A DNA stretch of 64,000 nucleotides from contig CAWFSF010000006.1 in NCBI GenBank assembly GCA_963818475.1, positions 1,216,001-1,280,000 of the forward strand, given 5' to 3'. The DNA comes from Nitrospirota bacterium. Lineage in GTDB: Bacteria; Nitrospirota; UBA9217. This document shows, piece after piece, positions 4,164-57,593 of this stretch. The notes beneath the pieces are model-generated. The model ran no database searches and was not told the origin of the DNA. It saw only the letters and a list, made by a program, of their open reading frames with translations. Each line of letters begins with the position of its first letter. The first letter of the stretch is position 1. The translations under genes were made by a program, and so were the position numbers.

Positions 4164-4186
4164 TTTCTTCTCCGATATACCTGCCT

Positions 4187-5533: not shown

Positions 5534-5645
5534 GACTCCGTCGCCTCCTGAATATATATGCAGTCCTTATCAGGCTCCTGTGAAACCAAGGCTGCACTTG
5601 CGCATCCTGTGGATGCAGAATATGGAATTCTGAAGTTCGTCGCGC

Positions 5646-6107: not shown

Positions 6108-6120
6108 TGCGTCCCCCAAA

Positions 6121-6155
6121 TAAAAAGAGTGGGCAAAAGAAATGCCCACCCTTCA
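6121..6155 (-). promoter_or_regulatory. rimP leader hairpin (terminator-like attenuator)
   Basis: Minus strand GAAGGGTGGGCATTTCTTTTGCCCACTCTTTTTA just upstream of rimP; matches the GxGTGGG...CCCACTC-U-tract pattern of rimP leaders. Confidence 0.75.
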
Positions 6156-6236
6156 GGATGTTCCCCAGAGTGATGTTGTTTTTTAACATACCGGCGCCGG
6201 GAATGCAAGGAAAAAATGGTGGAAGCAGGTATTATA

Positions 6237-8585
6237 TCAGTCAACCGAGAACGTGACCTCGCTGATCTGCCCCCCTGTTGTCTCTGCCCTGAGCCTGAAC
6301 GAACCCGTTTGCACGTTCCAATCGAGATAGTGGCGTTCACGGGTGCGGCCCAGCTCATGGCCGTTCAATGTCCAGATAACGACAGCCTGCGCAGGAGCGC
6401 CAATCGCCTCGAAGCGGAGCGTCTGATAGGTTGGCGCCAGATCGAGCGGTCTTTTGTACAACGAACCGGACGCGGGCCTGACGATATTAAAGACGGCATT
6501 TTCAGCATAGTGCGAGCTTTCTTTGGGCGCCATGGGCCGGTTGGTCTGACGCTGCCACAGTTCGTAGGCAGGAGGAAGGTCCTCGAACACGCGGTACTCT
6601 CCGGCACCCCCCTCCTGCTCCGAGTTGCGGACCAGCAGCCTGCGATGGACATCGCAGGGGGCAAGCCCGCTTTTTTCAAGATCCGGGCGCAAAAAAAGTT
6701 CGTTCACTCCATGGGGGCAATCAGGCCCGCGCTTCTTTCCCGATAGCGCGCAGACCTCGACCTCGACCAGTTCTTTCGGCTGCTCGAATTCCTGCGGCCC
6801 AGCCTTATCGTGGAGCATCAGCATTACCCGGCGAAAAAGCGGGCCTGCCCCGCTCACACCGGCAACCTGCTGCATGGGCACGCCGTTAAAGTTTCCGACC
6901 CAGACGCCGACCGTATAGTCCCGGGTATACCCGATGGTCCAGTTATCGCGGTAATTCCGCGAGGTACCTGTCTTGACAGCGCAGGGAAAGGGCATGCGAA
7001 GCACTGACTCCGGGCCGAACTCTGTTGCGCGTGCATAGGGGTCCTTCAGGATGCTCGTAACGAGATAGACCGCCTCGGGTGTGGATATACGACCCTTTGG
7101 TTCCCTTTGTACCCGCCGTCCTGGCGATGCGGCCGACAACCTCTCTGTAACCGGCACGAGTGACCCGCCCCGCGCGAGGGCCATATACGCCCTCGTCAGT
7201 TCATAGAGCGTCACCTCGCCGTCACCCAGCGCAAGCCCCACGCCATAATGTTCCGCATCAGCGGTCAGGGACGCGAACCCGAACTCGCGCAGCCGGGTCA
7301 AAACCGCATCAGGCCCCAGTTCTGCGGCAACGCGTACAGCCGGCACATTCAGTGAATTGGCGAGCGCTTCCCGGAGCCGCACGGGACCGTGAAACTGCTT
7401 ACTGTAATTCTGGGGTGAAAAATCGCCAACCGGCGTTGCGTAATGGACCTCGAGGTCCTGCAGAAGCGTGGCAGGAGTCATTCCCCGTTCAAGTGCCAGT
7501 CCGTAGATGAACGGTTTCAGCGTTGAACCAGGCTGGCGTAGCGCCTGCACGCCATCGTTCTGGCCTTCGGCTGTTATGTTGTCGAAATCCGCAGAACCTG
7601 CATAGGCAAGCACCTCGCCATTTCGGTTATCAAGTACCAGCACCGCGGCATTGGATACAACGCGGCCTTTGAGCTCGTACAAAACATCCCTGGCCTGCTG
7701 CTCCACCGCACGCTGGAGCGTGCTGTCCAAGGTCGTCCTGATCCTCGATGCCGTTCCGGGAATGGATGATAGGAGCCGCGTGATAAAATGCGGCGCAAGC
7801 CGCGGCCTTTGTGGTTGTTGAACCGTGATAACTTCCGCCTGAGCCAGCGTTTTGTCCTCGCTGGTGATAGCGCGAAGGGCCTCCATTCTTTCCAGAATAA
7901 AGGTTTGTCTGGACCTTACGAGTTCGATCTTTTTGTAGGGATCAAGCTTGGACGGCGCATTCGGGATGGCGGCAAGGAAGGAGGCCTGGGCAAGCGACAG
8001 GTCGGCAGCGGGCTTCCCAAAATAGGTGCGGGAGGCAGATTCGATCCCATAGAGCTGGTTCCCGAAAGGCAGCCTGCTGACATACTGTTCAAGAATTTCA
8101 TCCTTCGTCATTCCCGCTTCGAGACGATAGGCCAGGCGCACCTCGCGAAGTTTTTTTCCGAAAGTACGGGAGCCGGGTTCGAGCATTTTTGCGAGCTGCA
8201 GCGTAATGGTAGATGCGCCGGACCGTCGATAACGAGGAAGTGTGTTCTGAACTGCTGCGCGCGCGACAGCCCTCCAGTCCACACCGTCATGATCATAAAA
8301 TCTCCGGTCCTCTGCAGCGATCAAGGCGCTGATGAAATGAGGGGATATTTTTCTGAGCTTGACCGGATCGCTCCTGCCGTCGCGGCAGCGCACTTCCTGA
8401 AGCAGGATGCCTTTCCGGTCAGTGATCTTGAGGGAATGAAAAGGAGGGATATCCGCAGCATGGATGGGGTTGTCGCGTGCTTCGGAAAGCATGGTGCGAT
8501 AAAACGCAACTGCGGTCAGCATAATCAAGAAAATCAGTACTGCGAGCGAAGTATAAAGGGTTGTGCGATATTTATAATATGCCAT
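6237..8585 (-). CDS. pbpC: Penicillin-binding protein 1C
   Basis: Transglycosylase motifs EDRRFYDHDGVD and GASTITLQLAK; transpeptidase motifs QPGSTLKPF, SLN, KTGT; C-terminal beta domain; next to alpha-2-macroglobulin. Confidence 0.95.
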   Translation of the reverse strand: MAYYKYRTTLYTSLAVLIFLIMLTAVAFYRTMLSEARDNPIHAADIPPFHSLKITDRKGILLQEVRCRDGRSDPVKLRKISPHFISALIAAEDRRFYDHDGVDWRAVARAAVQNTLPRYRRSGASTITLQLAKMLEPGSRTFGKKLREVRLAYRLEAGMTKDEILEQYVSRLPFGNQLYGIESASRTYFGKPAADLSLAQASFLAAIPNAPSKLDPYKKIELVRSRQTFILERMEALRAITSEDKTLAQAEVITVQQPQRPRLAPHFITRLLSSIPGTASRIRTTLDSTLQRAVEQQARDVLYELKGRVVSNAAVLVLDNRNGEVLAYAGSADFDNITAEGQNDGVQALRQPGSTLKPFIYGLALERGMTPATLLQDLEVHYATPVGDFSPQNYSKQFHGPVRLREALANSLNVPAVRVAAELGPDAVLTRLREFGFASLTADAEHYGVGLALGDGEVTLYELTRAYMALARGGSLVPVTERLSAASPGRRVQREPKGRISTPEAVYLVTSILKDPYARATEFGPESVLRMPFPCAVKTGTSRNYRDNWTIGYTRDYTVGVWVGNFNGVPMQQVAGVSGAGPLFRRVMLMLHDKAGPQEFEQPKELVEVEVCALSGKKRGPDCPHGVNELFLRPDLEKSGLAPCDVHRRLLVRNSEQEGGAGEYRVFEDLPPAYELWQRQTNRPMAPKESSHYAENAVFNIVRPASGSLYKRPLDLAPTYQTLRFEAIGAPAQAVVIWTLNGHELGRTRERHYLDWNVQTGSFRLRAETTGGQISEVTFSVD

Positions 8586-42966: not shown

Positions 42967-45675
42967 TCAATTCACCTTCAACGATACAAACGCTGTCTTC
43001 ACTGTGCCGTCATCGAGCGTTGCCTGGATCTGCCACGTCCCTTCGGACAGGCCGTCCGTGCCCAGATTGTAGATGTACTGGTTGTCCGTTGCGTCGTACC
43101 GGAACGTATTCCCCGTGTCCGCGCCGCCCGTAGAAGTAACGTCGATCGGATCGCCCGCGGGCTGGTCGGCAGAGAACAACTGGACCGTGATGGTTGCCGT
43201 TGCCGTGACTAGATACGTCCCGCTCGCGTCAGTGAGCTGGAACTTAACCGGTATGGTGCTCCCCAGCCTGAAGGGCCTGTCGAGGCTGACCGGCGTGAAG
43301 AAGCCGCTGAAGGCGTAGACAACGCTGTACGATGCAGAGGCAGAAGCGGTATTCCCGGCCAGGTCCGAAGCGGTCACGATGTATGTGTATACACCCACGC
43401 CGTTCGCATTTCCGCCCGAGAGCGTAGCATTCTGGCTTGCCACGCCGGAGAGATTGTCCGTTGCCGTATAACCGGGCGTCGGGGCCGCGCCGAGCGTGTA
43501 CGATGCTCCGTCGGTGATGCCGGTAATCGTTATCGCTGGCGGCGTTTTATCTATGCTCACGGATACGCTGTGCGCTGTCTCTGTGTTTCCGGCGTTATCA
43601 ACGGCATAATAGCTTACCGTATGACTGCCGTCCGTGGTCAAACTCACGGGCGCGGAGCTGCCAGCCGCCACGACCTCAGCGCCTCCGTCCACGGTGTAAT
43701 GTATCTCCTTTACGCCTGAGCCTGTGTCGGTAGCAGTCAGCGATATTGCAACGTTAGAGACGTACCAGCCGCTATTGCCGACTGTGCCGCTTATTGAATG
43801 AGTCGTGACCGGCGATTGAGTATCCGCACTGCTATAGCCTTCAAAGACCTGGATTCTGTGATTGTAAGTATCAGCTACAAACACCTTTGCATGGGAATCC
43901 ACAGCTACGCCCATGGGATCGCGGAGCTGACCGTCGCCAATGCCGTATGCTCCGATTCTCCCTAAAAACGTCCCACTGTTGCGAAATACATGTATAGAAT
44001 TATATCCGTAATCAGCTACATACACATTTCCACTTTCATCCACGGATATCCCGCTTGGTGACGCAAATAGATTATACTTATATGTTCCCCATTTTCTCAA
44101 AAAAATCCCTGTACTACTAAAAACCTGCACAGTGCCGTTTCCAATCTCTGTCACATACACATTACCAGTGCTATCTACTGCTATCCCAGCGGGATAATTA
44201 AATTGGCTATCGCCAGAACCTCGTGATCCCCATTTTCTTAGGAATGTTCCTGTATTACTGAAGACCTGTACTCTGTCGTTAACGCATTCTGTCACATACA
44301 CATTTCCACTCCCATCCACTGCTATGCCATATGGGCCAGACAACTGGCCATCGCCAGTTCCATAGGTACCCCACTTTCTCAAGAATGTTCCTGTACTGCT
44401 GAAAACTTGTACATTGTTGTCGCCGATATCTGTTACATACACATTCCCTTGTGAGTCTATGGCTATGCCATTAGGAGAACGAAACTGCCCATTACCAGTG
44501 CCAAACCCACCCCATACTCTTAAGAAGTCTCCTGTTCTGCTGAAAACCTGGATTCTATAATTCTTTGAATCAATAACATATACATTTCCGTTTACATCCA
44601 ACGCTATGCTGCGTGGATATCCAAAGAAACCAAGCCCAGATTGATATGAGTTCCATTTGCTAAGGAACACCCCTGAACTGCTGAAAACCTGCATCCTGGT
44701 GTTCCAAGAATCTGCTACATGCACATTTCCGCCGGAATCCACGGCTATACCTTGAGGATAAGAAAACTGACCATCTCCATTACCCTGTGAACCCCATTTT
44801 CTCAGGAATGTCCCAGTGTTACTAAAAACTGTTATCCTGTTGCTGGTGATATCAGGAACATACACGTTTCCGTATCTATCCACTGCTAATGCTAATGGCC
44901 AATTAAACTGACCATCGCCTGAACCAGGTGCCCCCCATTTCCGCAGGAAAGTCCCTGTGCTGTCGAAAACCTGTATTCTATTGTTGTATGTATCAGCTAC
45001 ATACACATTTCCACTTGAATCCAGTGCCAAGGCCCGAGGATTATAAAACTGACCATCGCCTGAGCCCTTTGTCCCCCATTTTCCCAAGAAGGTCCCTGTG
45101 CTGTCAAAAACCTGTATTCTATTGTTGCTGAAATCGGCCACATACACATGTCCGCTTGAATCAACTGCTATGCCGGATGGACAACTAAACTGACCATCGC
45201 CTGAGCCATATGTCCCCCATTTTCCCAAGAAGGTCCCGGTGCTGTCAAAAACCTGTATTCTACTGTTTCCGAAATCAGCCACATACACATGTCCGTTCCC
45301 ATCAAGGGCTAAACCATTTATAGACTCAAACTGACCGTTTCCTGAACCACGTGTCCCCCATTTTCTAATAAATGTCCCCGTCTTGCTAAAAACATATACG
45401 CTGGAGTTGCCGTCGAATGTATATATATTATCGGCTGAATCCATAGAGATGTCTAAGGGAGTGTAGAAATTATACTCTCCGCCCCACTTATATAGGAAAT
45501 CACCCAAAGCAGCGTGAGCGGGCAAGGCGGTGAAGAGGGTGAATAACAGAATGGTGATCGTGAGAATAAAAAATAGAATATATTTATCGTAGCGCTCTCG
45601 TTTAGCGGGAGCGATCAAGACGTGTTCGTCGGGAGTAAATCCCGACGCTACATTATGGCATGTGCTGGTCATCAT
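42967..45675 (-). CDS. Secreted NHL-repeat protein (12 repeats) with Ig-like domains and C-terminal PxKF domain
   Basis: Signal peptide ending LPAHA-A; 12 repeats of about 47 aa, GxFxxKWG..G.GDGQF..P.GIAVD..GNVYV.D..N.RIQVF; TIPVKFQL motif near the C-terminus; ATGA overlap with the upstream gene. Confidence 0.88.
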   Translation of the reverse strand: MMTSTCHNVASGFTPDEHVLIAPAKRERYDKYILFFILTITILLFTLFTALPAHAALGDFLYKWGGEYNFYTPLDISMDSADNIYTFDGNSSVYVFSKTGTFIRKWGTRGSGNGQFESINGLALDGNGHVYVADFGNSRIQVFDSTGTFLGKWGTYGSGDGQFSCPSGIAVDSSGHVYVADFSNNRIQVFDSTGTFLGKWGTKGSGDGQFYNPRALALDSSGNVYVADTYNNRIQVFDSTGTFLRKWGAPGSGDGQFNWPLALAVDRYGNVYVPDITSNRITVFSNTGTFLRKWGSQGNGDGQFSYPQGIAVDSGGNVHVADSWNTRMQVFSSSGVFLSKWNSYQSGLGFFGYPRSIALDVNGNVYVIDSKNYRIQVFSRTGDFLRVWGGFGTGNGQFRSPNGIAIDSQGNVYVTDIGDNNVQVFSSTGTFLRKWGTYGTGDGQLSGPYGIAVDGSGNVYVTECVNDRVQVFSNTGTFLRKWGSRGSGDSQFNYPAGIAVDSTGNVYVTEIGNGTVQVFSSTGIFLRKWGTYKYNLFASPSGISVDESGNVYVADYGYNSIHVFRNSGTFLGRIGAYGIGDGQLRDPMGVAVDSHAKVFVADTYNHRIQVFEGYSSADTQSPVTTHSISGTVGNSGWYVSNVAISLTATDTGSGVKEIHYTVDGGAEVVAAGSSAPVSLTTDGSHTVSYYAVDNAGNTETAHSVSVSIDKTPPAITITGITDGASYTLGAAPTPGYTATDNLSGVASQNATLSGGNANGVGVYTYIVTASDLAGNTASASASYSVVYAFSGFFTPVSLDRPFRLGSTIPVKFQLTDASGTYLVTATATITVQLFSADQPAGDPIDVTSTGGADTGNTFRYDATDNQYIYNLGTDGLSEGTWQIQATLDDGTVKTAFVSLKVN
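45589..45651. repeat. REP doublet inside the NHL gene 5' coding region
   Basis: GTAGCGCTCTCGTTTAGCGGGAGCG (+) and GTAGCGTCGGGATTTACTCCCGACGAA (-); 63 bp. Confidence 0.88.
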
Positions 45676-46087
45676 AGCGTACCCCCCTGAGCTGAAGTCG
45701 CGGGGAATTCGAGCAAATTGCCGTTGCTGTCCGTGCATGTGCCAGCCCAGAAAAGGGGTTGCTTCCTGAATTCAGATTCGTTCAGGAGCATGGGAGTCGT
45801 GATCGTGAAAGGAATCTGTACTTCTGCCTGGGGATTCGAGAGCTGCGATGTTCAAGATTATTTGCTCCGTGCTGATAACCATAAGCGGAACATTGGACAG
45901 GATGACATTGGAGATGCTGCCGGCGTTCAGCGTTCTTGACAGTGAGGTTGTAGCTGAGAGTTACCGAGTCCGTACCCATGGTGTAGCCGGTCAGGGTGTG
46001 ACTCACTGAAACCGGCGGTTCGGCCCATGCCATACTTGCTGGTATGAGCCAGCCTAAAAACAGTAATGCAGCAAATCTTTTCCTCAT
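45672..46087 (-). CDS. Small secreted beta-rich hypothetical protein (frameshift near 45925)
   Basis: MRKRFAALLFLGWLIPASMAWA-EPPVSV...; continues in another frame as SISNVILSNVPL...FWAGTCTDSNGNLLEFPATSAQGGTL*. Confidence 0.7.
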
Positions 46088-46164
46088 GTTGCCCCCTTTA
46101 AGATGCAGCATAATGATCGGGCCTTCGGCACGCGCCTGAAGTGCGCTTGCTAATTTGATGTGGG

Positions 46165-46212
46165 ATTGTAAATGATTTTTTGTGCGTTGTCACCTGTCAG
46201 AACTGACAGGTG
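46165..46212 (-). promoter_or_regulatory. Sigma70 promoter with a lux-box-like operator abutting the -35
   Basis: Palindrome CACCTGTCAG-AA-CTGACAGGTG (46191-46212); minus-strand -35 GTGACA (46193-46188), 17 bp spacer, -10 TACAAT (46170-46165). Confidence 0.7.
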
Positions 46213-46249
46213 CCTTCAGAAAATATTTTTTTCGATTAACGGCTGTTTT

Positions 46250-46362
46250 GTAGCGTCCCCCGTTTATCGGGGGCGGTAGAATCTATTGAAATTCGTCCGG
46301 GATAAACCCGGACGCTACGAAATGCAAAAAATCTGTTCGTCGGGGATGAATCCCGACGTTAT
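46250..46362. repeat. REP cluster at the 3' end of the RAYT gene
   Basis: A 46250-46275 (+); B 46292-46318 (-, GTAGCGTCCGGGTTTATCCCGGACGAA); degenerate B 46336-46362 (-). Confidence 0.88.
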
Positions 46363-46877
46363 AAATACGACTTCGTAACCTCTTCAAAGCATCTGCTGTA
46401 CGGATAATCCTCGGGGCTCGCGGCTAAACCCTTTCTCACCGGGTTGTTCAAAACGTATTGAATGATTGTTTTCAAATCCTCGCCTGCCCTGATCACATGA
46501 TCATAGGCAGATTTCTGCCAGAGTTTGCTTATGCCGAATCGCTTTCTGAACACCGCTGTTGTCCTGCCTTTGAAGATATTCAGGAACTTCGACAAAGCGA
46601 CGCCCGAATCCCCGGATGAAACGATTACATGCAGGTGGTCCGGCATGAGGCAATAACAGAGCATCTTGTATTCGAGGTCTTGTGCCGCTTTGAAAAATTC
46701 CGCAATTATCGCCTCCGCCTCGACGTCGTGCCCGAATACGGATTTTTTATCGTGAACGCAGATTATCAGATGTACGGGGTGGTCATCGGCATAATCATAA
46801 TCAGGCAAACGATTGACACGGCTCTTGCCCCAGGTTTTGTAATCTTTACCCGACGGTTTTGTCTTGGAATTATTCAT
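46359..46877 (-). mobile_element. rayT: REP-associated tyrosine (HUH, Y1) transposase RAYT
   Basis: RLPDYDY, YCLMPDHLH (HUH), FKGRT, LWQKSAYDHVIR, YVLNNPVRKGL...YPYS; REPs on both sides. Confidence 0.9.
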
Positions 46878-46881
46878 AATC

Positions 46882-47260
46882 GTAGCGCCCTCGTTTATCG
46901 GGGGCGAAAGCATTCGTCGAGATATACAGCATGAACCGTAGCGTCACCGTTTACGGGTACGACTAACACATGATCGGTGTTCGTCGTGGATAAACCCCGA
47001 CGTTATAAAATACTTTTGCGAATGGTAAAGCCAAGGCCTACTATAAGGGTATTCAATCAGGCTTACAATGCCCCGAGCGGGATAGTTTGGGGTAGTGCGG
47101 ATAATAGCAGTTAGTTGCAAAGGCAGTCATGCAGGTCAATAAAAGTCACATTCCAACGTTTCGTAATTAATATAAATAGCACGACACCTGATGTTTTGCG
47201 CCCCCGATAAACGAGGGCGCTACGTACGTAGCCTGTAGCGTCGGAGTCTATCCTCGACGA
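46882..47260. repeat. REP cluster at the 5' end of the RAYT gene
   Basis: A 46882-46906 (+) and an identical inverted copy 47199-47223; degenerate A 46938-46961; B 46980-47006 (-); B 47235-47260 (+). Confidence 0.88.
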
Positions 47261-47396: not shown

Positions 47397-47435
47397 CTGC
47401 CCTGTCTCCGCTTACAGGCTGAAGAGACAGGGCAG
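47397..47435 (-). terminator. Hairpin downstream of the cytochrome gene
   Basis: CTGCCCTGTCTC...GAGACAGGGCAG, 12-bp stem with a large loop and no clear U-tract. Confidence 0.45.
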
Positions 47436-47463: not shown

Positions 47464-49516
47464 CTATTGATGGCAGCCAGTAACCGTCTGGCAATCCACA
47501 TTTTTATTAGCCGAACCGTGAGCGTACCCCCGGGAGGCAGGTAGGCCCGATACCGATCCTGAAATAAGAGCAGGACCGTTCGCCGGCTCATACCAGTTTC
47601 TATTTAAGTGCGATGCATCGTCTCCCTGCATTACAATCATGCCTTTTCTGTTCCACCCATGCGGTGTGCGGACATGACAATTAACGCAGCGATATGCGAA
47701 TTGCGATGTTGAACTAGAGGTGCTATAGAGGTAGTGCTGCGTATGAAGGTTTGTGCCACCGGTCGTATAAAAACCAGTATTATTTGCTCCACCGCCCGTG
47801 GAATAGGTATTCGGGTCGTGGCATTGAAGGCAAAGCGTGCCGTTTGCGTCATTTGGACTAGTTTTCGGAGTGGCATATTCATCATAATACAGATACGGCA
47901 ATATGTATTTGTTTGTGGAACCGTGTGGGCCCTGAGGCCTGCTTAAGCTTTCTTTCGTGTGGCAGTCAGAACAGTACATGAGCTGGCTGCCAGTGTTCCA
48001 CCCGTTAACCATTGCACCCCAAGTATTGGTGTTGCCGGTGACAACGGGATGGAATGATCCATTAGAATTATTATTATTAAATTCTTTAGACTGGTCCGAC
48101 ATCTGTTGAGAAACTGTGAATGCATTCGGAAAAGTGCCCCCTCCCGATGCAAAATAAGAATGACATTTGAAACAGATTTCGTATTCCTTAACCGGTGTTG
48201 AACCCCAGGTCGTGCTTGATGTCGCGCCGAGTGGTTCAACCGGGCCATATGAAGTGGGTGCGGACCAACTGCCCGAAGGATATCCGCCCGATACACTTAC
48301 ATATGCAACCCCATAAAGCGCACTGGTGGTACTGATCGTGTTCGTCCCCTGCGTATGGACGCCGCTTCCGGCAGTATGAGAATTATGACAATCCGCGCAC
48401 TCTACATGCCATACAGAAGATGACCAGCCATTCTGGGTGCCGGATTTCACTTCGATGGATTTATGTTTATCGTCATAATTGCTATTATTCATATCATGGC
48501 GTGACGTACTGGACAACTCAGGTTTAATCAATCTTCGACCGGAAGGAGCATTGCTACCATGGCATGCAGCTACATTTTGCTGCCCAAATCTGTCATTATC
48601 ATTAAAGCAGCTTGCCTCTTCCTGAAACGACAGCAAGTACTTTCCAGACGTGGGATTCGGAGTTGTAGGATCAGCGGCCGTTACGCCCGACTTGTGCGGA
48701 AAGTGGCAGTTCATACATTTTACATCGCCGACATTGGGACCGTGATTGGCCGGATTGCCGCCGGCAGTGGGCGCCCCGGTCGGCGGAGCATAAGCGACAG
48801 TAGCGGCATCATGTATGCTCCCGCTGAACTCTTCTTTAAGATGGCACAGCAAACAGAGTGCCGAATTCTGATTCGATTTCGACCAGAAAGTTCCCCCACT
48901 GATTGTCATGCGGATTATGGCACGAGGTGCATTCCACATAATCAGAGCCAGCTTTGCTATACAGCTTGATTTGTGGACCGGTTTGAAGTTCAGGATCTTT
49001 ACCCGCGTCATACCGGATAGCAACCGGATGGTCATCGTTAAGATCCCTACCTATATACCCGGCAGCTGCCTGAGGCATCAAATTGGTGCCTGCAGTCCCC
49101 TCCATGGTGATTTCACCTGATTCGACCTTGTTCGGCAGGTTAACCAGGGAGCCCAGCGCAATGGTCCCGTCATGGCACGAGAGGCAGATGCTGGTATTGG
49201 CATGGGTTTTAGGATCATCAGCAGCGTAGTATAACAATCCAGCCATCACGTCGCTGGTGTAGGTGACGTAGGTCTCGAGCGAAGCAGTCTTGTTCCAAAG
49301 CTGGGCCTGGGTGTTGCCGCCGTGAGGAGTGTGGCAGAAAACGCAGATCTCTGTTGTTCCACTTGTAGCGTCAGAAATGGACTTGATGGAGCCGGTTCCG
49401 CTCGTTGAAAGGTTATGCTTTGAATTCTGGACCTTTACCGGCGCTGCATTGGTCAGCCATGCGGCCCACAGGGTCAGGAAAGAGAATAGAATAATGAATA
49501 AAACAAAACGTTTCAT
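47464..49516 (-). CDS. Secreted multiheme cytochrome c (about 683 aa, one frameshift near 48880) with OmcE-like N-terminal tetraheme domain
   Basis: Signal peptide; 10 CxxCH motifs (CVFCH, CLSCH, CTSCH, CLLCH, CMNCH, CADCH, CFKCH, CSDCH, CLQCH, CVNCH) plus CX14CH and a terminal CX5CH. Confidence 0.88.
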
Positions 49517-49549: not shown

Positions 49550-50599
49550 TCAGTTGGCTTGCTGCAGGTACTGAAACATCTGAACGCGGTAGTTGTAACT
49601 GTCCGCGACATATAAACGGTCCTTGCTGTCAAGGTAGAGCCCGGCCGGTATATCGAACTCACCGGCGCCGATGCCGTTCCGTCCGAAAATGAGGAGCAGC
49701 CGTCCGTCACGGTCGAATATCTGCACGCTGTTCCTGACGCCGTCCGATACCCAGATGTGCCCCTCACTGTCCACGGCAATGCCTTTCGGCTTTATAAATG
49801 ACCCGATGGCCGTGCCGGTACTGCCGAATCCGGTCAGGTGCTTTCCCGTCTTATCGAATATCTGCACGCGGAAATTAAGCGCATCCATGACATAGAGGTC
49901 GCCGGCCTTGTCGACCGCAATATGGGTCGGGTAGTTGAACTCACCGCTCCCGGTTCCCCTTTTGCCGAAGGAGCCGGTCTTTTTTCCTTCGAGGTCATAG
50001 ATGTCGACGCGATGTCCCGTGGTATCCACGACGTAGAGCAGCTTTTCCTTTTTATTGATCGCAATGCCCGTAGGCCTGAGCATGCTGTCATCGCCGATGA
50101 TACGTTTGTTCTTTCTGCCGCTGTACACGAAGACCCTGCGCAGCGCTGAATCAGTAATATAGAGCAGGCCATCGGCGTCCAGTGCCGCGCCGATGGGAGA
50201 AGCAAGCGGCCCCATTTTGGTCATGTTGAACTTGTCGTATTTCTTTTTCTCAAAATCAAAGAAATGGATGCATGCCCCGCCCCAGTCAGCGACATAAACC
50301 TTGCCCTCACCGTCGGCCACCAGGCCGTGAGGCGACACGATGCGGTCAACCGTATCCTCGCCGGCGATGAATTCCCACACCCGGGCAAAAAATCCCTTCT
50401 TAATACCGAGGTCCTGGGGTGTTATGATCGTTCTGATGAATTGTACACGGGGCTTTTCAGGTGCGAGTGGCCACACCCACGGCTGGGCTGATGCCTGCGG
50501 CTGGGAATTGACAGCGCCCTGAACGGGCAATGCCGGGGAGACGATCGCGAACGCAAGAGCAAGAGCACATGCGGTTATGAAGAGCTGATATTTTTTCAT
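49550..50599 (-). CDS. Secreted NHL six-bladed beta-propeller protein
   Basis: Signal peptide, WVWPLAPEKPRVQF, NHL repeats (GEFNYPTHIAVD, FIKPKGIAVDSEGHI, VADSYNYRVQMF). Confidence 0.88.
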   Translation of the reverse strand: MKKYQLFITACALALAFAIVSPALPVQGAVNSQPQASAQPWVWPLAPEKPRVQFIRTIITPQDLGIKKGFFARVWEFIAGEDTVDRIVSPHGLVADGEGKVYVADWGGACIHFFDFEKKKYDKFNMTKMGPLASPIGAALDADGLLYITDSALRRVFVYSGRKNKRIIGDDSMLRPTGIAINKKEKLLYVVDTTGHRVDIYDLEGKKTGSFGKRGTGSGEFNYPTHIAVDKAGDLYVMDALNFRVQIFDKTGKHLTGFGSTGTAIGSFIKPKGIAVDSEGHIWVSDGVRNSVQIFDRDGRLLLIFGRNGIGAGEFDIPAGLYLDSKDRLYVADSYNYRVQMFQYLQQAN

Positions 50600-50639
50600 G
50601 ACCGGATGCGGACAGTTATAACATTCCTTCCCCGTGAAG

Positions 50640-50945
50640 TCAACCCAGAAGCGCAGTGGGGTGCTGCGATCCTTCCTCATGCTGATGGCGGGGATGATTA
50701 GGATTCTCCAGGACCCGGTCGATCGCTTCCACCACGGCTGACTCCACCATCACCCAGGGAGAACCGACTTCCCCGTCGTGGTCGATCTCGACATAGTAGT
50801 GAGGGGGAAGGTAGTTCAGCGCGATCGCCGCTATATCGTTCACGCAGCGCGGGCAACCGCAGACATTCTTATAGCGCTCATTAAGATATTTGCCCATCAC
50901 GGCAACTACGCGCTCATAATTTGCATTTGTTACTTTACAGTCCAT
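50640..50945 (-). CDS. ComFB-family protein (putative cyclic-dinucleotide receptor)
   Basis: N..E..V, CGCPRC..DIAAIALNYLPPHY, A...V..NP.H family motifs. Confidence 0.85.
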   Translation of the reverse strand: MDCKVTNANYERVVAVMGKYLNERYKNVCGCPRCVNDIAAIALNYLPPHYYVEIDHDGEVGSPWVMVESAVVEAIDRVLENPNHPRHQHEEGSQHPTALLG

Positions 50946-51197: not shown

Positions 51198-53879
51198 ATG
51201 ATCCCGAATACGGAAAAAAACAAGCTGTATATTATTGACGGCAACTCTTATATTTACCGGGCCTATTACGCCATCCGGGGTCTGACTACTTCCACAGGGC
51301 TCCCTACGAACGCGGTGTTCGGTTTTGCCAATATGCTGCTCAAGGTCATCAAGGACAGAGCTCCCGACCTTCTCGCGATCGCCTTTGATCCCAAAGGTCC
51401 CACCCGCCGTCACCGCGAATATGCCGAGTACAAGGCGCACCGGCCCCCCATGCCCCGCGACCTTGTCCCGCAGATACCGTATATCCATAAGCTTGTCGAA
51501 GCCTTTCGCATCCCGGTCTTCATGCAGGAGGGGCAGGAAGCGGACGATGTCATCGCCACGCTGGCGCGCAGGGCGGAAGCTGACGGATTGGACGTGACCA
51601 TCGTCACCGGAGACAAGGATATCCTCCAGCTCGTCGGGCCGCGCATCAGGGTGTACGACACTCTGAAGGAGAAGATCTATGAACCGCAGGATGTCCAGGA
51701 GCGGTTCGGCGTCCCGCCCGCGGCAGTGATCGAGATCCTCGGCCTCATGGGAGACGCATCGGACAATATCCCCGGCGTGCCAGGCATCGGTGAAAAGACC
51801 GCCCAGACGCTGATGAAGCAGTACGGTTCCATCGAGAACCTGCTCTCCCATCTTGACGAGATCACACGGCCCAAGCTCAGGCAGTCCCTTACGGAGAACG
51901 CGCATCTGGCGCGCCTGAGCCGCGAGCTGGCCCGTCTCCACACCGATATACCGCTCGATGTTTCCTACGAAGCGCTCAGCCCGCAGGAGCCTGACAATCA
52001 GGCACTGCTGGGCCTCCTGCAGGAACTGGAGTTCCCCTCCCTGCTCAAGTACGTTGTGCAGGAACCAGCGCAGGAGGCTGATTACCAGACCATTCTTGAC
52101 GAAACAGCCTTTCAGCGCCTCTTGACCGTGCTCTCGGCGTCAAAAGAGTTCTCCTTCGATACAGAGACCACTTCTCTTTCTCCCATGGAGGCGGATCTCG
52201 TCGGCATCTCCTTTGCGGTGGAGCCCTGGCAGGCATACTATATACCGCTGGGCCATGTCTGCCTGGGGACGCCGCGCCAGCTCGGCCTTGAATACGTGCT
52301 GAAACAACTGAAGCCCATCATGGAAGACTCCGGGATCCTGAAGATCGGCCAGAACATCAAATACGACATTCTCGTGCTCGGTCATTACGGCATTGCTGTC
52401 CAGGGCATTTCATTTGACACCATGATCGCCTCGTACCTGCTGAATCCGGGAAAAACGTCCCACGGCCTTGATGCAATAGCGCTGGAATATCTGAACTACA
52501 AGACCACGACCTATCAGGAGGTCACGGGTTCCGGGAAAAAGCAGATCGGGTTTTGTGAAGTTGACATCAAGACCGCAACCCGCTACTCGGGAGAAGACGC
52601 AGATATCACGCTGCAGCTCAAGCAGAAGCTCTCGCCCATGCTGCAGGAGCAGAACCTTGACACCCTGTTCAGGGACATGGAAATGCCGCTCATGCAGGTG
52701 CTGGCTGAGATGGAGCGGGCCGGCGTAAAGGTCGATGCGGCGCTCCTGGGGACCATGTCGAAGCAGCTCGCACAGAAGATGGAGGCTGTAGAAAAGACGA
52801 TCTATGAACTGGCCGGTGAATCGTTCAACATAAACTCGACGAAACAGCTTGCCGAGATCCTGTTCGTGAAGCTCGGGCTCTCTCCGGTCAAACGGACCAA
52901 GACCGGCTTTTCGACCAATGTGGACGTGCTCGAGGAACTGGCTCACGCACACAGCCTGCCGGCGGAGATCCTTGCGTACCGGAGCCTGTCGAAGCTGAAA
53001 TCGACCTATGTCGACGCGCTGCCGGCCATGATCAACCCCAGGACCGGGCGGCTGCATACGTCGCTGAATCAGACCGTCACGGCAACCGGCAGATTGTCAA
53101 GCAGCGATCCTAATCTCCAGAACATCCCGATCCGGACCGAGATCGGCAGGCAGATCAGAAAGGCCTTTATCGCGGAACAGGGCTGCAGCCTGCTCTCCGC
53201 CGATTATTCGCAGATCGAGCTGCGCATCCTCGCCCACATGAGCGGCGACGACGCCCTCATCGCGCACCTTCATCGCCAATGAGGATGTGCACACCCGAAC
53301 GGCCGCCGAGATCTTCGGCCTGCCTGCCGAAGAGATCACCCCGGAAATGCGGCGCAAGGCAAAAGCGGTCAACTTCGGCATCATTTACGGCATCTCCGCC
53401 TTTGGACTTGCGCAGGACATCGGCGTCTCGAATGCCGAGGCAAAACGCTATATCGACAGCTACTTTGCCCGATATCCCGGGGTCCGGGAGTTCCTCGACA
53501 AGACCATCGACCAGGCAAAAACGACCGGTTTTGTCACCACGCTGTTCGAGAGGCGGCGCTTCATTCCCGAACTGTCGTCATCCGCGGCGGCCGTGCGCAG
53601 CTTCGGTGAGCGTATGGCCGTCAACACGCCCGATCCAGGGCACCGCGGCAGACCTCATTAAGCTCGCCATGATCCGGATCAGCGGAAAGCTCAAGAGCAA
53701 AGGCCTGGCCTCAAGGATGATCCTTCAGGTCCATGACGAACTGGTCTTCGAGATCCCGGACAGCGAGATCGAGATCATGAAGCAGTTCGTACAAGGAGGA
53801 AATGGAAGGCGTGGTCAAGCTGTCGGTCCCGATATTGGTGGACCTGGGCGTGGGCAAGAATTGGGATGAGGCCCATTAG
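51198..53879 (+). CDS. polA: DNA polymerase I (frameshifts in the C-terminal part)
   Basis: IDGNSYIYRAYYA, EADDVIATL, GDASDNIPGVPGIGEKTA, FDTETT, TGRLSSSDPNLQNIP, ADYSQIELR, AKAVNFGIIYG, LQVHDELVFE. Confidence 0.97.
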
Positions 53880-53968: not shown

Positions 53969-56900
53969 CTATTTAAACTCAAACCGAAACTTCACGTCGC
54001 CGCCGATCGTGCCCAGTTCATTCTGCTCACCGACCAGGGAAAAATGCTTATCCAGAACATACTCGATGCGGAATACCGTATCGGGCGTCGTCGTGCCGAC
54101 GTTCGATGAGTACGTAAAATAGAGTCTGTCCTGAACAAGCTCTTTGCCCACCGTTACCCGCGGCACTGACGTGTCTTTGCTCAAGTAAGGGTCTACCTGG
54201 AATCGGTCAAGACCGGTAAGGCTCCGGGCTCTCCTTTCGAAGATGTCCTGGAACTGGCCGGTAGCGAACGAGGCCGCTTCGCTCATGCCGACCTCCGCAC
54301 CCTTCCCTTTAAGATCAGCGCTTGTTTTCCCAAGGGCGAGCATGCTCAGGACATCCGTTTCGGACAAAGGCGGATCGGAAAAGAAGGTCACGACAGCCCG
54401 GTCCGCAGGTCCGGAGACCGTCATCCGGATAAGGTATTCCCGGATCCGCGTTTCCGCCTGAATGTCGAGAATCGGGTTGATCCGGTTCGGGTCCACAAAA
54501 TCCACTGAAGCATGCTGGATCTTAAAATCGTTCCGCCTGAAGTAGGCCACGCCGGTCCGGGCCTCAAGCCGCCCGAGCAGCTGCGGCTGGCCGGCTGTGC
54601 CGCGGATGAACGTATCCACCTCGATCGGTATCTTTGCAAGGTTGTTCTGGATCAGGATATTGTCCTTTCCGTGAAAGCGGATGTTCAACTGCGTCTCGCC
54701 GATCCAGCCGATCTCCGTTTTCCTTCTTTGTGAAAAACCTTTGAACGTCTCCAGGAGCATGCTTTTCCACTCAACCCGCTTTTCATAGAGCGCGCGTTTG
54801 ATAAGGACATCGCCCGAGAGGTTTTGTTCTGCAGCGTCACCGTCATAATACAGCTCACCGGACAACGTGGAGACGAGGCCGGGAGGATAACGCACCGTCA
54901 CGTTGTCAAAAGCCACGCGGTCGAGAACTCTTCCGGGGCAAATCGCTCAAGCTGCACCCGGCCTGAGAGTTTCATTCCGCCGCCGCCGACATTGCCGGCG
55001 AGGGAGTCAACAACGATCCGTTCCCGGTTGATAGTCAATAGTGCCGTTCAAAGCGCTGAATTTCTGCGGGACATCTTTTATTTTGATCTCGCCGTTCTCA
55101 AGGCGCAGTTCTCCGGCGATCTCAGGATCATCCCAGGACCCTCTCACCGTAAGCTTTACGTCTGCATTACCGTCACCATGTTCGACTTCACGGTAGAACA
55201 GCCTCAGCAGTGAAAGATTCGCCTTTCCGGCGCACGCGAGATCGTAGTCCTTCTTGATCCGCAAACTGCCGGTGACGGCCATACGGGTACCCGTTCCGGT
55301 GAAGCTGAGCGCTTTGACCAGGAGTTTGCCGGCTTCCATGTTTATGACCGCGTCGCCCTCGTTCTCAAGCCGATAATCGCCCAGGGCAAAACTGAGTTGC
55401 TGAAACACAGCTGATCCGGAAAGTAAAGGAGATGTCCCCCTGCCCTGCGCGGCCACTCTTCCGTCGGCAACGATCTTCACCCGCGAGAGCGCCTCGCTGC
55501 CCGGCGGTATAATGAGCGGCGCAATATCCGCGGACCGCAGGTCGGCGCTGGCGCTCCAGGCATAAGGCGGCCGCAGGTCCATGCTGCCGGCCAGCCGCGT
55601 CTTGTTCGCAGGCAAGTCCGCTTCAACGGTCATCATACCGGCATCGATACCGAGCGTTGCTTTACAGGCTCCCATGCTGACCTGACGATACCGGAGATCG
55701 TCGAGCGTCAACGTCGATTTCAGCTGCAGAGCTGAGAATGGTCCGCTCGAATTGATCTCGAGATTGAAGGGTCCGGACAGGGATATGCCGGAAAGATGGT
55801 CCACGTCCGAAAGGTTCACCCCCCTGCTCGTTAACTGGGCTGCGTAGGTGCGGTTAAACCCGATCCAGCCGTTTCCCTCCACCACTCCCCCTCCCTTGTG
55901 CACCACGACCTGCGGGAACGAGACCCGTTCAGGAGTGAGTGCGACCGTGAGGGAACCTTTTGAGAAAGACTCGCCGTACGCGGAGCCGGGCCCGACGTTC
56001 AGCGTCGCATTGCCGTCGAAGTCCTTGCTCGTGCCGATGAACGTGATCTCGCCGGTCGCTGAAAGCTGGAGCGGCAGGGGCCGGTAAAATAACGAAACAA
56101 CGCTCGCGACATCCGAGCGTACCACATTCAGACGCGCTGCGTAAAAGATGTTCTCGCGGCTGAAATCGATTGATCCATCCAGTATATACCGCGACCCCAG
56201 TTGATGAATATCCACGCTGGAAAACGATAATTTTTTATCGCGAAACTGCATTTTGCCGGCAGCATCATGGAACAGAATGTCTTTAATAGTGACCGGGCCG
56301 GCCGAAAGGCTGCCGTCAAACACGGGTGAGAACAGTTCGCCGGTCAACCTGCCATGAAGCGCTGCTGTTCCTTCCAGAGATACTCCGGTGAGGAAGGAAA
56401 GTGTCCTGCTCTTGCCGTTGGACTCGAAGCTGAGCTCGGCGTTATACCCTTTTGCGCCATCGATACTGCCTGTTGCGCGGGCAACGAGGTCGCCGGCGAT
56501 GATCTCCAGCTTTTTTATGTCGAAATTCGGCGCACGATGATCGAGAATCGCCGTAACGCTGTCAACGACCATGCTGGTCCGGGCCCTGGCGATCTTCCAC
56601 TGCTTACCGGTCAGGCTCAGCAGATTGTTGCGGTACGAGAACGTCAGGCCTGCCTCCTGCACCGTGAACGTTTTATAGGGAATATTGTACAGCGTGACGG
56701 CGCCGTCAACGACAGGCTCTGTCATCCGGCCCTTTGCCGAGACCGCCAGGTCGATAAGCGGACGCAGTCCTTTTGACGTTTTTTTGTTCAGCAGTGCTGA
56801 GAAACGGCCAAGCGTCTTCTGTCCGAAACGGCCTTTCATCGTCAGGTCCAGGCTGCCATCGGGCACTGTCCCCATGCTGCCGGAAGCCGTGATCTTCCCA

Positions 56901-57593
56901 TCGGGGGCAAGGAGCTCAAGGCTGGTGAGCGTCAGCTTGTCGTTGCCGTACTCCGCCCTGCCGCGGAGATCGAAGATTAGTGCCGGTTGTGCTTTCGCGG
57001 CGATTCGGACCGATGCGCTTTGCACCGACATCCTGATATTGTTTGCCGGCGTCTTGAATCGGACGTTCATGCTGAGGCCGGAGACCGAAAGGGTCGTTTC
57101 CGACGCTTCGTCCAGAAAATCGATGGTGCCGCGGTGGATCCTGATCGTACCGGGATCAACGGTAAAACGGGAGGGTCCTTTCTTCTGGCGCTCCCCTGCG
57201 GCAGTCTTGATGCGGTCGGCCATTTGCATCAAGGATAGGTCGCCGGTCGTATTTCGGGTTGAACGGATGTGCGGTTCCAACAAGGTTATCGTAGGCAGGC
57301 TGATCCGTTTCAGCACCAGCGGAAAAGGATTGATATACACCCGTAACTTTCGGACCTGAACCGCATCGATGCCGCTCGCGTCGGGAACGAAGACATCCCT
57401 CACCTCGATATAGAGCGGGACCGCATTGGCCTTGATCATGCCGATACGGGCAACGGGACCAAGCATCTCCTGCAAAGGGGAAAGGATGTACGGCCGGAGG
57501 CGTGCGGAAAAAGCGTCGCTTTGGACGTAATAGTCGAGCGCTATGACAAGCATGGCGAGTAGCAGCACTATCATGGAAGAGTCGTTTTTTCAT
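53969..57593 (-). CDS. tamB: Translocation and assembly module TamB/AsmA-like protein (frameshifted)
   Basis: N-terminal TM anchor, long beta-rich repeats, DUF490-like C-terminus (NPILDIQAET, SDPPLSETDVLSML, GGDVKFRFEFK). Confidence 0.82.

What the first reader, a model, noticed from the sequence alone, without database searches (positions are those of the whole stretch)
47464..49516. OmcE-like nanowire domain fused to an extension carrying up to 8 more hemes
Seen: joining the two ORFs across one extra base near 48880 gives a ~683-aa secreted protein with 10 CxxCH, one CX14CH and one terminal CX5CH. The first ~230 aa read SKHNLS..TTEICVFCHTPH...LWN...SICLSCHDG...IGRDLNDDHPV...VECTSCHNPHDN..NFL...SALCLLCH. 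Established (recalled, not searched): Geobacter OmcE, a filament-forming tetraheme cytochrome, has the same motif order (KHDLS, QICVFCHTPH, LWN, CMSCHDG, DLSNDHPV, LECGSCH..HDN..PFL, KLCLGCH) and ends at heme 4; a CX14CH site is known from OmcZ. Inference: an OmcE-type polymerising unit with a ~450-aa multiheme appendage, possibly a branched, capping or anchoring nanowire subunit, outside the Geobacteraceae.
Basis: partly seen in the sequence, partly recalled or inferred. Interest (0 to 1): 0.82.

Follow-up and report, generated by a model that had tools for sequence, protein, structure and literature searches.

The report
Twelve-haem OmcE-headed cytochrome, split by indel
This is one gene for a secreted twelve-haem electron-carrying protein whose front end is a true relative of the Geobacter OmcE "nanowire" subunit; it belongs to a widespread but unstudied family and may link such wires to the cell.

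Summary
The two minus-strand ORFs are one gene. Dropping one base of an A-run (+ strand T-run 48877-48879) gives 683 aa with 10 CxxCH, one CX14CH and a terminal CX5CH. The break is probably an assembly error, because polA 2 kb away changes frame three times. No reads cover the site.

The N-terminal domain is a real OmcE homologue: PDB 7tfs E 5.5e-20, and Z 13.4 at rmsd 2.4 Å for an orthologue's model. The 450-aa extension starts directly after haem 4. It most resembles MtrA, the decahaem wire that sits inside the MtrB barrel (Z 8.0 and 7.7).

The fusion is not a one-off. Relatives occur in at least 15 phyla. An NHL propeller gene lies directly upstream in 57 of 73 loci. The gene often sits in the published OmcE nanowire cluster type.

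My best reading is a terminal, non-repeating conduit or adaptor piece, not an internal filament subunit. Polymerisation, location and NHL binding were not tested. Earlier notes of this scan recorded OmcE-type clusters in other genomes. New member of a known kind.

The parts
47464..49516 (-). Whole gene for the 683-aa, 12-haem c-type cytochrome, read in two frames in this assembly. The stop codon is at 47464-47466.
48877..48879 (-). Run of three A on the coding strand that holds the one extra base. This is where the frame changes.
   Evidence: Homologues read NFLVESNQNS across it.
49445..49516 (-). Probable Sec signal peptide (residues 1-24, MKRFVLFIILFSFLTLWAAWLTNA). It has no lipobox Cys.
   Evidence: Read by eye. 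It aligns with the signal-peptide part of the OmcE precursor. No signal-peptide program was available.
48835..49444 (-). OmcE-homologous tetrahaem domain: KHNLS, CVFCHTPH, LWN, CLSCHDG, DDHPV, CTSCHNPHDN, then (after the frame change) CLLCHLK.
47467..48834 (-). Eight-haem extension (haems 5-12): CMNCH, CX14CH, CADCH, CFKCH, CSDCH, CLQCH, CVNCH and a terminal CX5CH. Its best structural match is MtrA.
49550..50680 (-). NHL-repeat beta-propeller gene directly upstream (376-aa ORF). The likely start is the internal MKKYQ... with a signal peptide. It is the conserved operon partner.
50640..50945 (-). ComFB-family gene, upstream neighbour. It is conserved in the Nitrospirota synteny, but it is not known to belong to the system.
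42967..45738 (-). Second, 923-aa NHL-repeat / Big_13 protein downstream. It is absent from this position in the relatives.
46359..46913 (-). IS200-like Y1 transposase between the cytochrome gene and the 923-aa NHL gene. It is part of an insertion relative to the relatives' synteny.

Best explanation
The locus is one gene, shown split by an assembly indel. It encodes a secreted, roughly 683-aa cytochrome with twelve covalently bound, probably bis-His haems.

The first four haems sit in a domain homologous to the OmcE nanowire subunit. The chain does not stop at haem 4 as OmcE does. It runs on in line into an eight-haem, MtrA-like wire, so the protein is a single continuous twelve-haem chain.

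It is made together with a dedicated NHL beta-propeller. It is the counterpart of the large multihaem cytochrome found in OmcE-nanowire gene clusters of other phyla.

Most likely mechanism (inferred). It is a fixed, non-repeating piece of an envelope electron conduit. The MtrA-like tail carries electrons along or across the outer envelope. The OmcE-like head keeps one free OmcE-type face, on the haem-1 / N-terminal His side. Through that face it could couple to the free-standing OmcE-like subunits encoded elsewhere in this genome.

Shown here: gene unity, haem sites, OmcE homology and fold, pairing with NHL, family spread. Predicted only: the in-line geometry. Inferred only: location, partners and direction of electron flow.
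For: One gene:
- Homologues are single proteins. 72 of the first 82 rows are 640-738 aa.
- All 7 close Nitrospirota loci have one ORF of 663-716 aa.
- polA nearby has three frame changes.

OmcE head:
- phmmer against 7tfs_A gives E 5.5e-20, and 3.6e-19 against 9yuq_N.
- The profile comparison with 50 free-standing OmcE-like proteins gives E 6e-71 and 6e-73.
- The model of orthologue P0241 has pLDDT 82.9 and pTM 0.83.
- Foldseek matches it to 7tfs at E 1.6e-10 with TM 0.71. VIA gives Z 13.4 at rmsd 2.4 Å.

In-line, MtrA-like tail:
- MtrA (6r2q_A) is the top match of the window's own C-part model: Z 8.0, rmsd 4.5 Å, 202 residues, 28% identity; the next row is Z 5.0.
- In the full-length model MtrA aligns as one body from residue 164, inside the OmcE-like domain, to 651: Z 7.7, rmsd 3.9 Å, 216 residues.

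Haem chemistry: in 75 of 75 rows there are 12 proximal His and exactly 12 further invariant His.

Context:
- An NHL ORF lies directly upstream in 57 of 73 loci, commonly with a 4-base overlap.
- The Desulforhopalus isolate locus L019 reads 10-haem / OmcE-like 212 aa / NHL / 5-haem-size cytochrome / 674-aa protein without a Pfam family / NHL / fusion.
- That 674-aa family is present in 44 of 79 loci.
- This gene set matches the published OmcE cluster: two multihaem cytochromes, two propellers, OmcE and a large barrel (PMC13712944, section 8).
- This genome has free-standing OmcE-like genes, each followed by an NHL gene. One of them also has a PPIase and a partial match to the 674-aa family.

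Origin: all 95 fusion N-domains lie on one side of one branch.
Against: - No localisation, binding or polymer test was run. The one complex job (NHL with the OmcE-like head) could not be queued.
- The MtrA match is borderline. The tool itself says that Z of about 8 can be a common arrangement. The DmsE/MtrA family model scores 27 bits against a cut-off of 192. Foldseek gave nothing at E <= 0.001 for the extension.
- In the Nitrospirota clade the NHL-cytochrome pair sits among housekeeping genes (TamB-like, polA, ComFB, DUF512, shikimate dehydrogenase). No 674-aa family gene lies within 8 kb. The free-standing OmcE-like genes are about 870 kb away.
- The full-length model is of an orthologue about 50% identical, not of the window's protein. 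It holds no haems.
- The branch that unites all fusions has SH-aLRT 81 only, and the careful tree search did not finish.
Confidence: 0.5

Rival explanations
1. It is itself a nanowire subunit with a 12-haem repeat. The N-terminal KH histidine of one molecule would ligate an unsatisfied haem at the C-terminal end of the next, as in OmcE but with a three-times longer unit.
For: - The free-standing family has 4 + 4.
- The N-terminal KH His is invariant.
- The chain ends 0-1 residues after the last haem His in 50 of 75 rows. The free-standing OmcE-like consensus likewise ends 2 residues after its last haem His.
- OmcE filaments use one His from the neighbouring subunit (passages of PMC9473688 and PMC13712944).
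Against: - Nothing was tested.
- Many distant members carry a further tail with another His after the last haem motif (...CHGxxHxxxxY). That could satisfy the last haem within the same chain.
- Which OmcE His acts across subunits could not be read, because the OmcE paper is not held.
- No filament with such a subunit appears in the papers I read.
Confidence: 0.15
2. It is a monomeric periplasmic or surface multihaem electron carrier that merely shares ancestry with OmcE and has no physical link to any filament. The NHL protein would be a folding or partner protein.
For: - In the Nitrospirota clade the pair stands alone among housekeeping genes.
- The NHL partner has a plain signal peptide and no clear lipobox (by eye).
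- The extension core also ends many unrelated large multihaem proteins of 350-2677 aa, so it is a general module.
- One cytochrome beside omcE in G. sulfurreducens (GSU0616) was predicted periplasmic, and its loss raised metal reduction (passages of PMC1829397). I did not show that GSU0616 is the homologue.
Against: - In 44 of 79 loci the gene lies in a cluster with the 674-aa candidate barrel family. In 17 of 73 loci a free-standing OmcE-like gene lies in the same locus.
- All eight OmcE His positions and the OmcE fold are kept over deep divergence.
Confidence: 0.2
3. The frameshift is real and the gene is a recent pseudogene in this strain.
For: No read or contig of the same organism covers the site, so the extra base is not disproved.
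Against: - polA, an essential gene 2 kb away, shows three frame changes in 540 bases.
- Both halves keep every conserved Cys and His and show no other defect.
- The break is a single base in a homopolymer.
Confidence: 0.1

Closest known systems
OmcE, the tetrahaem nanowire subunit of Geobacter sulfurreducens (PDB 7TFS), and the Desulfuromonas soudanensis OmcE homologue that PMC13712944 describes (PDB 9YUQ appears to be it; the equation is mine)
   Same: - Homologous over the whole OmcE chain.
- Same order of four CxxCH motifs and four further His.
- Same fold.
- An NHL propeller gene stands beside it.
   Different: - OmcE ends just after haem 4; this protein goes on for about 450 aa with eight more haems.
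- The haem-4 side is therefore occupied by its own chain.
- Filament formation has not been shown.
MtrA, the decahaem cytochrome inside the MtrB barrel of Shewanella (PDB 6R2Q chain A)
   Same: - Best structural match of the extension (Z 8.0 and 7.7; 26-28% identity over 202-216 aligned residues).
- Both are a long single file of haems with little secondary structure.
   Different: - No significant sequence-family match (TIGR03508 scores 27 bits against a cut-off of 192).
- Twelve haems, not ten.
- No MtrB-type barrel gene lies beside it in this window.
- Z of about 8 is borderline.
The omcE gene cluster of Desulfuromonadia as described in mBio 2026 (PMC13712944, section 8): two multihaem cytochromes, two beta-propeller lipoproteins, OmcE, a large beta-barrel
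   Same: - Relatives of this gene occupy the large-cytochrome position of clusters with this make-up in L019, L025 and many others.
- The adjacent NHL gene corresponds to one of the two propellers.
   Different: - Here only the NHL-cytochrome pair is present. The OmcE-like, second NHL, PPIase and partial candidate-barrel genes lie about 870 kb away.
- In the sections and passages I read, the paper does not say that a cluster cytochrome has an OmcE-like head.
Five-haem OmcE-like proteins noted by PSI-BLAST in PMC13712944, section 9
   Same: OmcE-like core with extra haem sites, in uncultured bacteria of many phyla.
   Different: Those keep OmcE's length and add one solvent-exposed haem. This protein is three times as long and adds eight haems in line.

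Membership tests
OmcE family (tetrahaem nanowire subunit) | Significant sequence similarity over the whole OmcE chain | tested here: met
   phmmer against 7tfs_A gives E 5.5e-20, with 15-211 aligned to 12-216 of 232. The profile comparison with 50 free-standing OmcE-like proteins gives E 6e-71.
OmcE family (tetrahaem nanowire subunit) | Four CxxCH motifs and four further haem-ligand His, in the OmcE order | tested here: met
   KH, CxxCHxPH, CxSCHDG, DHP, CxSCHxxH and CxxCH are all present and invariant in 75 of 75 relatives. The fourth CxxCH lies after the frame change.
OmcE family (tetrahaem nanowire subunit) | OmcE fold | tested here: met
   Model of orthologue P0241: 7tfs_A at Z 13.4, rmsd 2.4 Å, 182 of 202 residues; Foldseek E 1.6e-10. 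This was not done on the window's own N-terminal part.
OmcE family (tetrahaem nanowire subunit) | Chain ends just after haem 4, leaving that end free for the next subunit | tested here: not met
   The chain continues for about 450 aa. The free-standing family's consensus ends 2 residues after its last haem His.
OmcE family (tetrahaem nanowire subunit) | Polymerises into a filament, with one haem ligated by a His of the neighbouring subunit | not testable with these tools
   It needs haem-loaded oligomer models or cryo-EM. No complex job ran.
OmcE-cluster large cytochrome (OmcE-like head plus multihaem tail; unnamed family) | OmcE-like N-domain followed by more than 200 aa holding 6-8 further haem sites, with an NHL propeller gene directly upstream | tested here: met
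   The window has both features. The same holds in 57 of 73 loci. The window falls inside the fusion side of the tree, in a Nitrospirota clade of 29 rows with SH-aLRT 98.
OmcE-cluster large cytochrome (OmcE-like head plus multihaem tail; unnamed family) | Lies in a cluster with free-standing OmcE, a second propeller, a small multihaem cytochrome and the 674-aa candidate barrel | tested here: not met
   None of these lies within the window beside the gene. No ORF of the 674-aa family is found in L004-L011. The own genome has only a partial hit, at C6:393275-393940.
MtrA/DmsE decahaem family (TIGR03508) | Reaches the curated family score | tested here: not met
   27.2 bits for the C-part and 25.4 bits for the N-part, against a cut-off of 192.2.
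MtrA/DmsE decahaem family (TIGR03508) | MtrA-like fold of a single-file haem wire | tested here: inconclusive
   6r2q_A at Z 8.0 and 7.7. It is the top or second row, but at the level the tool calls borderline. Foldseek gave E 3.
Paired_CXXCH_1 (PF09699) multihaem superfamily | Reaches Pfam's gathering score | tested here: met
   40.2 bits for the N-part and 51.5 bits for the C-part, against a cut-off of 20.6.

The most novel reading that the evidence does not exclude
This family may be the missing base or anchor of OmcE-type cytochrome nanowires. Its MtrA-like eight-haem tail would sit in or on the cluster's large outer-membrane protein and take electrons from the periplasm. Its OmcE-like head would present one genuine OmcE interface on which free OmcE subunits start or end a filament. 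The paired NHL propeller would hold that interface until assembly. The 2026 mBio paper on OmcE bundles states that no anchor or tip candidate appears to be encoded in the OmcE operons (Discussion). This protein would fill that gap.
Probability: 0.25. Interest if true: 0.8.

Novelty: new member of a known kind. Interest (0 to 1): 0.5.

Why it matters
How cytochrome nanowires are anchored, started, ended and electrically joined to the cell is an open question. The OmcE-bundle paper says so in its Discussion (PMC13712944), and so does a 2025 review (PMC12307469, passages).

A conserved cluster protein that carries a true OmcE domain fused in line to an MtrA-like wire is a concrete candidate for that junction. 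It could be tested by deletion in cultured carriers.

For this window alone the result is more modest. It is an ordinary member of that family, in a Nitrospirota genome that also has free-standing OmcE-like genes, and the apparent two-ORF structure is an assembly artefact.

Tried and rejected
1. 'Three tandem OmcE modules' (12 = 3 x 4 haems).
   - First comparisons gave weak, collinear matches of the extension's two halves to the OmcE profile (E 4.9e-6 and 1.7e-4).
   - The control showed that the same halves match unrelated cluster cytochromes as well or better. Against alignments of 18 five-haem, 12 eight-haem and 9 thirteen-haem proteins the E-values were 4e-8 to 3.5e-15, against about 5e-6 for OmcE.
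   - 7tfs aligns to the extension only at Z 2.7, and out of register.
   - Rejected: this is generic paired-CxxCH likeness.

2. Reads. One search found 4 runs, of which 2 hold small shares. Laid on the stretch, they give only relatives' contigs at under 99% likeness, and none lies over 48877-48879. No RNA holder was listed.

3. Complex prediction of the NHL propeller with the OmcE-like head and four haems. Binding is untested.

4. PDB sequence search with the extension: no hit at E <= 10. Foldseek with the extension model: nothing at E <= 0.001.

5. The L019 674-aa protein used as a single query against this genome gave no hit. A profile of 31 sequences found one partial hit. The ESM Atlas gave only 'hypothetical protein' clusters and a weak Porin_4 lead at 0.89. 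That it is a barrel rests on the paper's description of the cluster, not on a test here.

6. The promoter and terminator scan found nothing above the shuffled expectation.

7. Papers.
   - The OmcE structure paper (PMC9357133) and Baquero et al. 2023 (PMC10330847) are not held. I therefore could not read which OmcE His acts across subunits. I saw no supplements.
   - Searches for a prior description of this architecture: omce, filament, tetrahaem; omce-like, cytochrome nanowires, nhl repeat; 3 papers; omce, nitrospirota, multiheme; 3 papers.
   - None of the passages I read describes a roughly 690-aa, 12-haem protein with an OmcE head.

8. Earlier notes for this genome near the site: none.
Full report
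**What is in the sequence.**

On the minus strand, 48836..49516 encodes 226 aa. These begin with a signal-peptide-like stretch and carry KHNLS, CVFCHTPH, LWN, CLSCHDG, DDHPV and CTSCHNPHDN. A second frame runs on to 47464.

Aligned with full-length homologues, frame 1 is colinear up to ...NFLVE. Frame 2 is colinear from SNQNSALCLLCH... The closest homologue reads NFLVESNQNSALCLRCH without a break. The misfit is a single extra A in GTC-GAA-A-TCG, which is the + strand T-run at 48877-48879.

Read across the break, the protein has 213 + 470 = 683 aa. It has 10 CxxCH, one CX14CH and a C-terminal CX5CH followed by one residue.

**Is the break real?**

Homologues are single proteins. 72 of the first 82 rows are 640-738 aa. 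All seven close Nitrospirota loci have one ORF of 663-716 aa.

In the same window polA changes frame three times within 540 bases (frames 3, 1, 2, 3). It is one ORF of 904-958 aa in five of the six relatives' loci that hold it whole; L007's is split as well. A TamB-like gene is also cut in two. The genome is 4.66 Mb in 7 contigs.

I therefore take the break for an assembly indel. This is not proven. The public runs that share words with the stretch hold only relatives' contigs, and none crosses the site.

**The N-terminal domain.**

- phmmer against all PDB chains finds OmcE (7tfs_A) at E 5.5e-20, over residues 15-211 against 12-216 of 232. It finds 9yuq_N, a 218-aa 'putative multiheme cytochrome c', at E 3.6e-19. 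I take 9yuq to be the D. soudanensis OmcE bundle of PMC13712944; that equation is mine.
- A profile of 50 free-standing proteins of about 222 aa matches the domain at E 6e-71 and 6e-73.
- Such free-standing proteins are very common: 6708 of the 8000 scored candidates reach E <= 0.001, in many phyla.
- An AlphaFold2 model of the intact orthologue from locus L004 (P0241, 702 aa, about 50% identical) has pLDDT 82.9 and pTM 0.83.
- Its residues 36-249 superpose on 7tfs_A at Z 13.4, rmsd 2.4 Å, 182 of 202 residues and 40% identity. Foldseek gives E 1.6e-10.

Homology to OmcE is established.

**The extension.**

It starts directly after the fourth haem motif. The consensus of the free-standing family ends there, CxRCHxK.

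It has no PDB relative by sequence. The only Pfam family it reaches is Paired_CXXCH_1.

The model of the window's own C-part has pLDDT 72.8 and pTM 0.78. It matches MtrA of the Mtr complex best: 6r2q_A at Z 8.0, rmsd 4.5 Å, 202 residues and 28% identity, with the next row at Z 5.0. Foldseek alone finds nothing significant.

In the full-length model MtrA aligns as one body from residue 164, inside the OmcE-like domain, to residue 651: Z 7.7, rmsd 3.9 Å, 216 residues. Together with the pTM of 0.83, this suggests one continuous file of twelve haems, with the extension running on in line from haem 4. The Z values sit at the level the tool calls borderline, so I treat 'MtrA-like' as a likeness and not as membership. 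The DmsE/MtrA family model scores far below its cut-off.

My own idea that the extension is two more degenerate OmcE units failed its control.

**Haem ligands.**

In an alignment of 75 relatives that includes distant phyla, all 12 proximal His are invariant. Exactly 12 other His are invariant too. The haem-6 site is CX12-22CH in 62 rows, CX2CH in 9 and CX3-4CH in 4. The last site is CX5CH in 53 rows and CX3CH in 10.

The protein thus has the same ligand budget as OmcE (two His per haem). OmcE is nevertheless a polymer, because one His acts on the neighbour (passages). The count cannot decide between ligation within the chain and ligation across chains.

**Family and context.**

- Full-length relatives at 41% identity or more are Nitrospirota MAGs. 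Relatives at about 30% identity occur in Elusimicrobiota, Calditrichota, Planctomycetota, Thermodesulfobacteriota, Myxococcota, Acidobacteriota, Pseudomonadota, Bacteroidota, Verrucomicrobiota, Aquificota, Campylobacterota and others.
- By my rule, 73 of 79 loci hold a fusion ORF.
- 57 of those 73 have an NHL propeller ORF directly upstream on the same strand, commonly overlapping by four bases.
- 17 of the 73 also hold a free-standing OmcE-like gene.
- In the Desulforhopalus isolate (L019) the order is: 10-haem, OmcE-like (212 aa), NHL, small multihaem cytochrome, a 674-aa protein without a Pfam family, NHL, fusion (582 aa), 13-haem.
- The 674-aa family is found in 44 of 79 loci, including the Desulfuromonas locus L025 directly upstream of NHL and fusion.
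- This make-up is that of the omcE cluster described for Desulfuromonadia: two multihaem cytochromes, two propeller lipoproteins, OmcE and a large barrel (PMC13712944, section 8).

A quick maximum-likelihood tree was built of 142 OmcE-like domains (95 fusion, 47 free-standing). To save time I left out every second row of A3 and two of every three rows of A2. I also dropped ORFs with 40-200 residues after the domain. The tree puts all fusions on one side of one branch (SH-aLRT 81), and the window lies in a Nitrospirota clade of 29 rows (SH-aLRT 98). The careful search did not finish.

**This genome.**

Around the window's gene the synteny TamB-like / polA / ComFB / NHL / cytochrome / ... / DUF512 radical-SAM / shikimate dehydrogenase is shared in full with four Nitrospirota loci (L004, L005, L008, L011). 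The NHL-cytochrome pair is seen in six of the seven loci compared. No 674-aa family gene lies in those loci.

In this window an IS200-like transposase, a 109-aa ORF and a 923-aa NHL/Big_13 protein are inserted after the cytochrome gene.

About 870 kb away the genome has a free-standing OmcE-like gene (222 aa). It is followed by an NHL gene, a SurA-like PPIase and an ORF that matches positions 40-195 of the 657-position profile of the 674-aa family. A second OmcE-like gene (259 aa) is followed by an NHL/FG-GAP protein and an ORF of 2789 aa with 48 CxxCH. The parts of an OmcE-type system therefore seem to be present but scattered.

**How it most likely works.**

Because the chain continues in line from haem 4, the face that OmcE uses to meet the next subunit is taken by the protein's own extension. 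An OmcE-type contact is possible only at the haem-1 / N-terminal side. The protein therefore cannot be an internal subunit of an OmcE-type filament. It can be a terminal piece, or it can polymerise through a different contact, C-terminal end to N-terminal end.

Three things bear on the choice:
- the likeness of the tail to MtrA;
- the linkage to the candidate barrel family in other phyla;
- the fact that the extension core also ends many other large multihaem proteins of 350-2677 aa (838 relatives at E <= 0.001, 398 at <= 1e-10, 42 at <= 1e-30).

I favour a fixed conduit or adaptor whose tail is the conserved envelope part and whose head is the OmcE-compatible part (confidence 0.5). A self-polymerising 12-haem wire gets 0.15, a monomeric carrier unrelated to filaments 0.2, and a true pseudogene 0.1.

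That MtrA lies with its N-terminus in the periplasm and its last haem at the cell surface is my recollection and comes from no call. If the likeness extends to orientation, the OmcE-like head would face inward. This shows how open the geometry is.

**Comparison with what is in print.**

The mBio 2026 paper (sections 8, 9 and 12 read in full, plus passages) notes five-haem OmcE-like proteins of similar length. It discusses the need for an anchor or tip protein and says no such candidate appears to be encoded in the OmcE operons. In what I read it does not mention an OmcE-like head on a cluster cytochrome.

My three searches turned up no description of this architecture. The OmcE and Baquero papers and all supplements were out of reach, so I cannot say that it is unreported.

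Earlier notes of this scan record OmcE-type clusters in at least 24 other genomes. They include 10- and 11-haem OmcE relatives in an Omnitrophota genome and a Nitrospirota cluster. They agree with this reading and were seen after I had formed it.

**Verdict.**

The gene is an ordinary, probably intact member of a widespread and uncharacterised family that belongs to the known OmcE-cluster kind. The most interesting lead is the family-level hypothesis that it is the junction between cell and nanowire.

Noticed in passing
window 51198-53876 (+): polA is read in four pieces (frames 3, 1, 2, 3), with changes near 53262, 53635 and 53797. It is a single ORF of 904-958 aa in five of the six relatives' loci that hold it whole. 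The first site is not a simple homopolymer. This points to frequent indel errors in the assembly.
   Followed up: partly
window 53969-57574 (-): A TamB-like gene is split into ORFs of 855 and 315 aa. A relative's 1151-aa protein aligns through the junction in one frame, so this is probably an in-frame stop or a compensated pair of indels.
   Followed up: no
window 42967-46913 (-): An IS200-like Y1 transposase, a 109-aa ORF and a 923-aa NHL-repeat/Big_13 protein lie between the cytochrome gene and the conserved downstream genes. They are absent from that place in the Nitrospirota relatives.
   Followed up: partly
window 47397-47435: A 12-base perfect inverted repeat (ctgccctgtctc ... gagacagggcag) lies just downstream of the cytochrome stop codon. 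I saw it by eye. The terminator scan did not call it, because no T-run follows.
   Followed up: no
L084:9054-17423 (own genome C6:414054-422423): An ORF of 2789 aa with 48 CxxCH motifs lies directly after a 259-aa OmcE-like tetrahaem gene and a 939-aa NHL/FG-GAP/BACON protein. It is a giant multihaem cytochrome in an OmcE-like setting.
   Followed up: no
L083:6812-12221 (own genome C6:389811-395220): A free-standing OmcE-like gene (222 aa) is followed by an NHL propeller, a SurA-like PPIase and two ORFs without a Pfam family. The first of these matches the N-terminal part of the 674-aa candidate barrel family. The set is preceded by two TPR proteins and a 1246-aa CARDB/BACON protein.
   Followed up: partly
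proteins P0252, P0257, P0260, P0267, P0272, P0354: The core of the extension (query residues about 115-435) recurs at the extreme C-terminus of very large proteins of 1969-2677 aa. It seems to be a module that ends many multihaem proteins.
   Followed up: no
L007 (Nitrospirota MAG), 3582-6261: This relative's polA is also split into two ORFs (563 and 364 aa), so some of the public MAGs used for comparison carry indel errors too.
   Followed up: no
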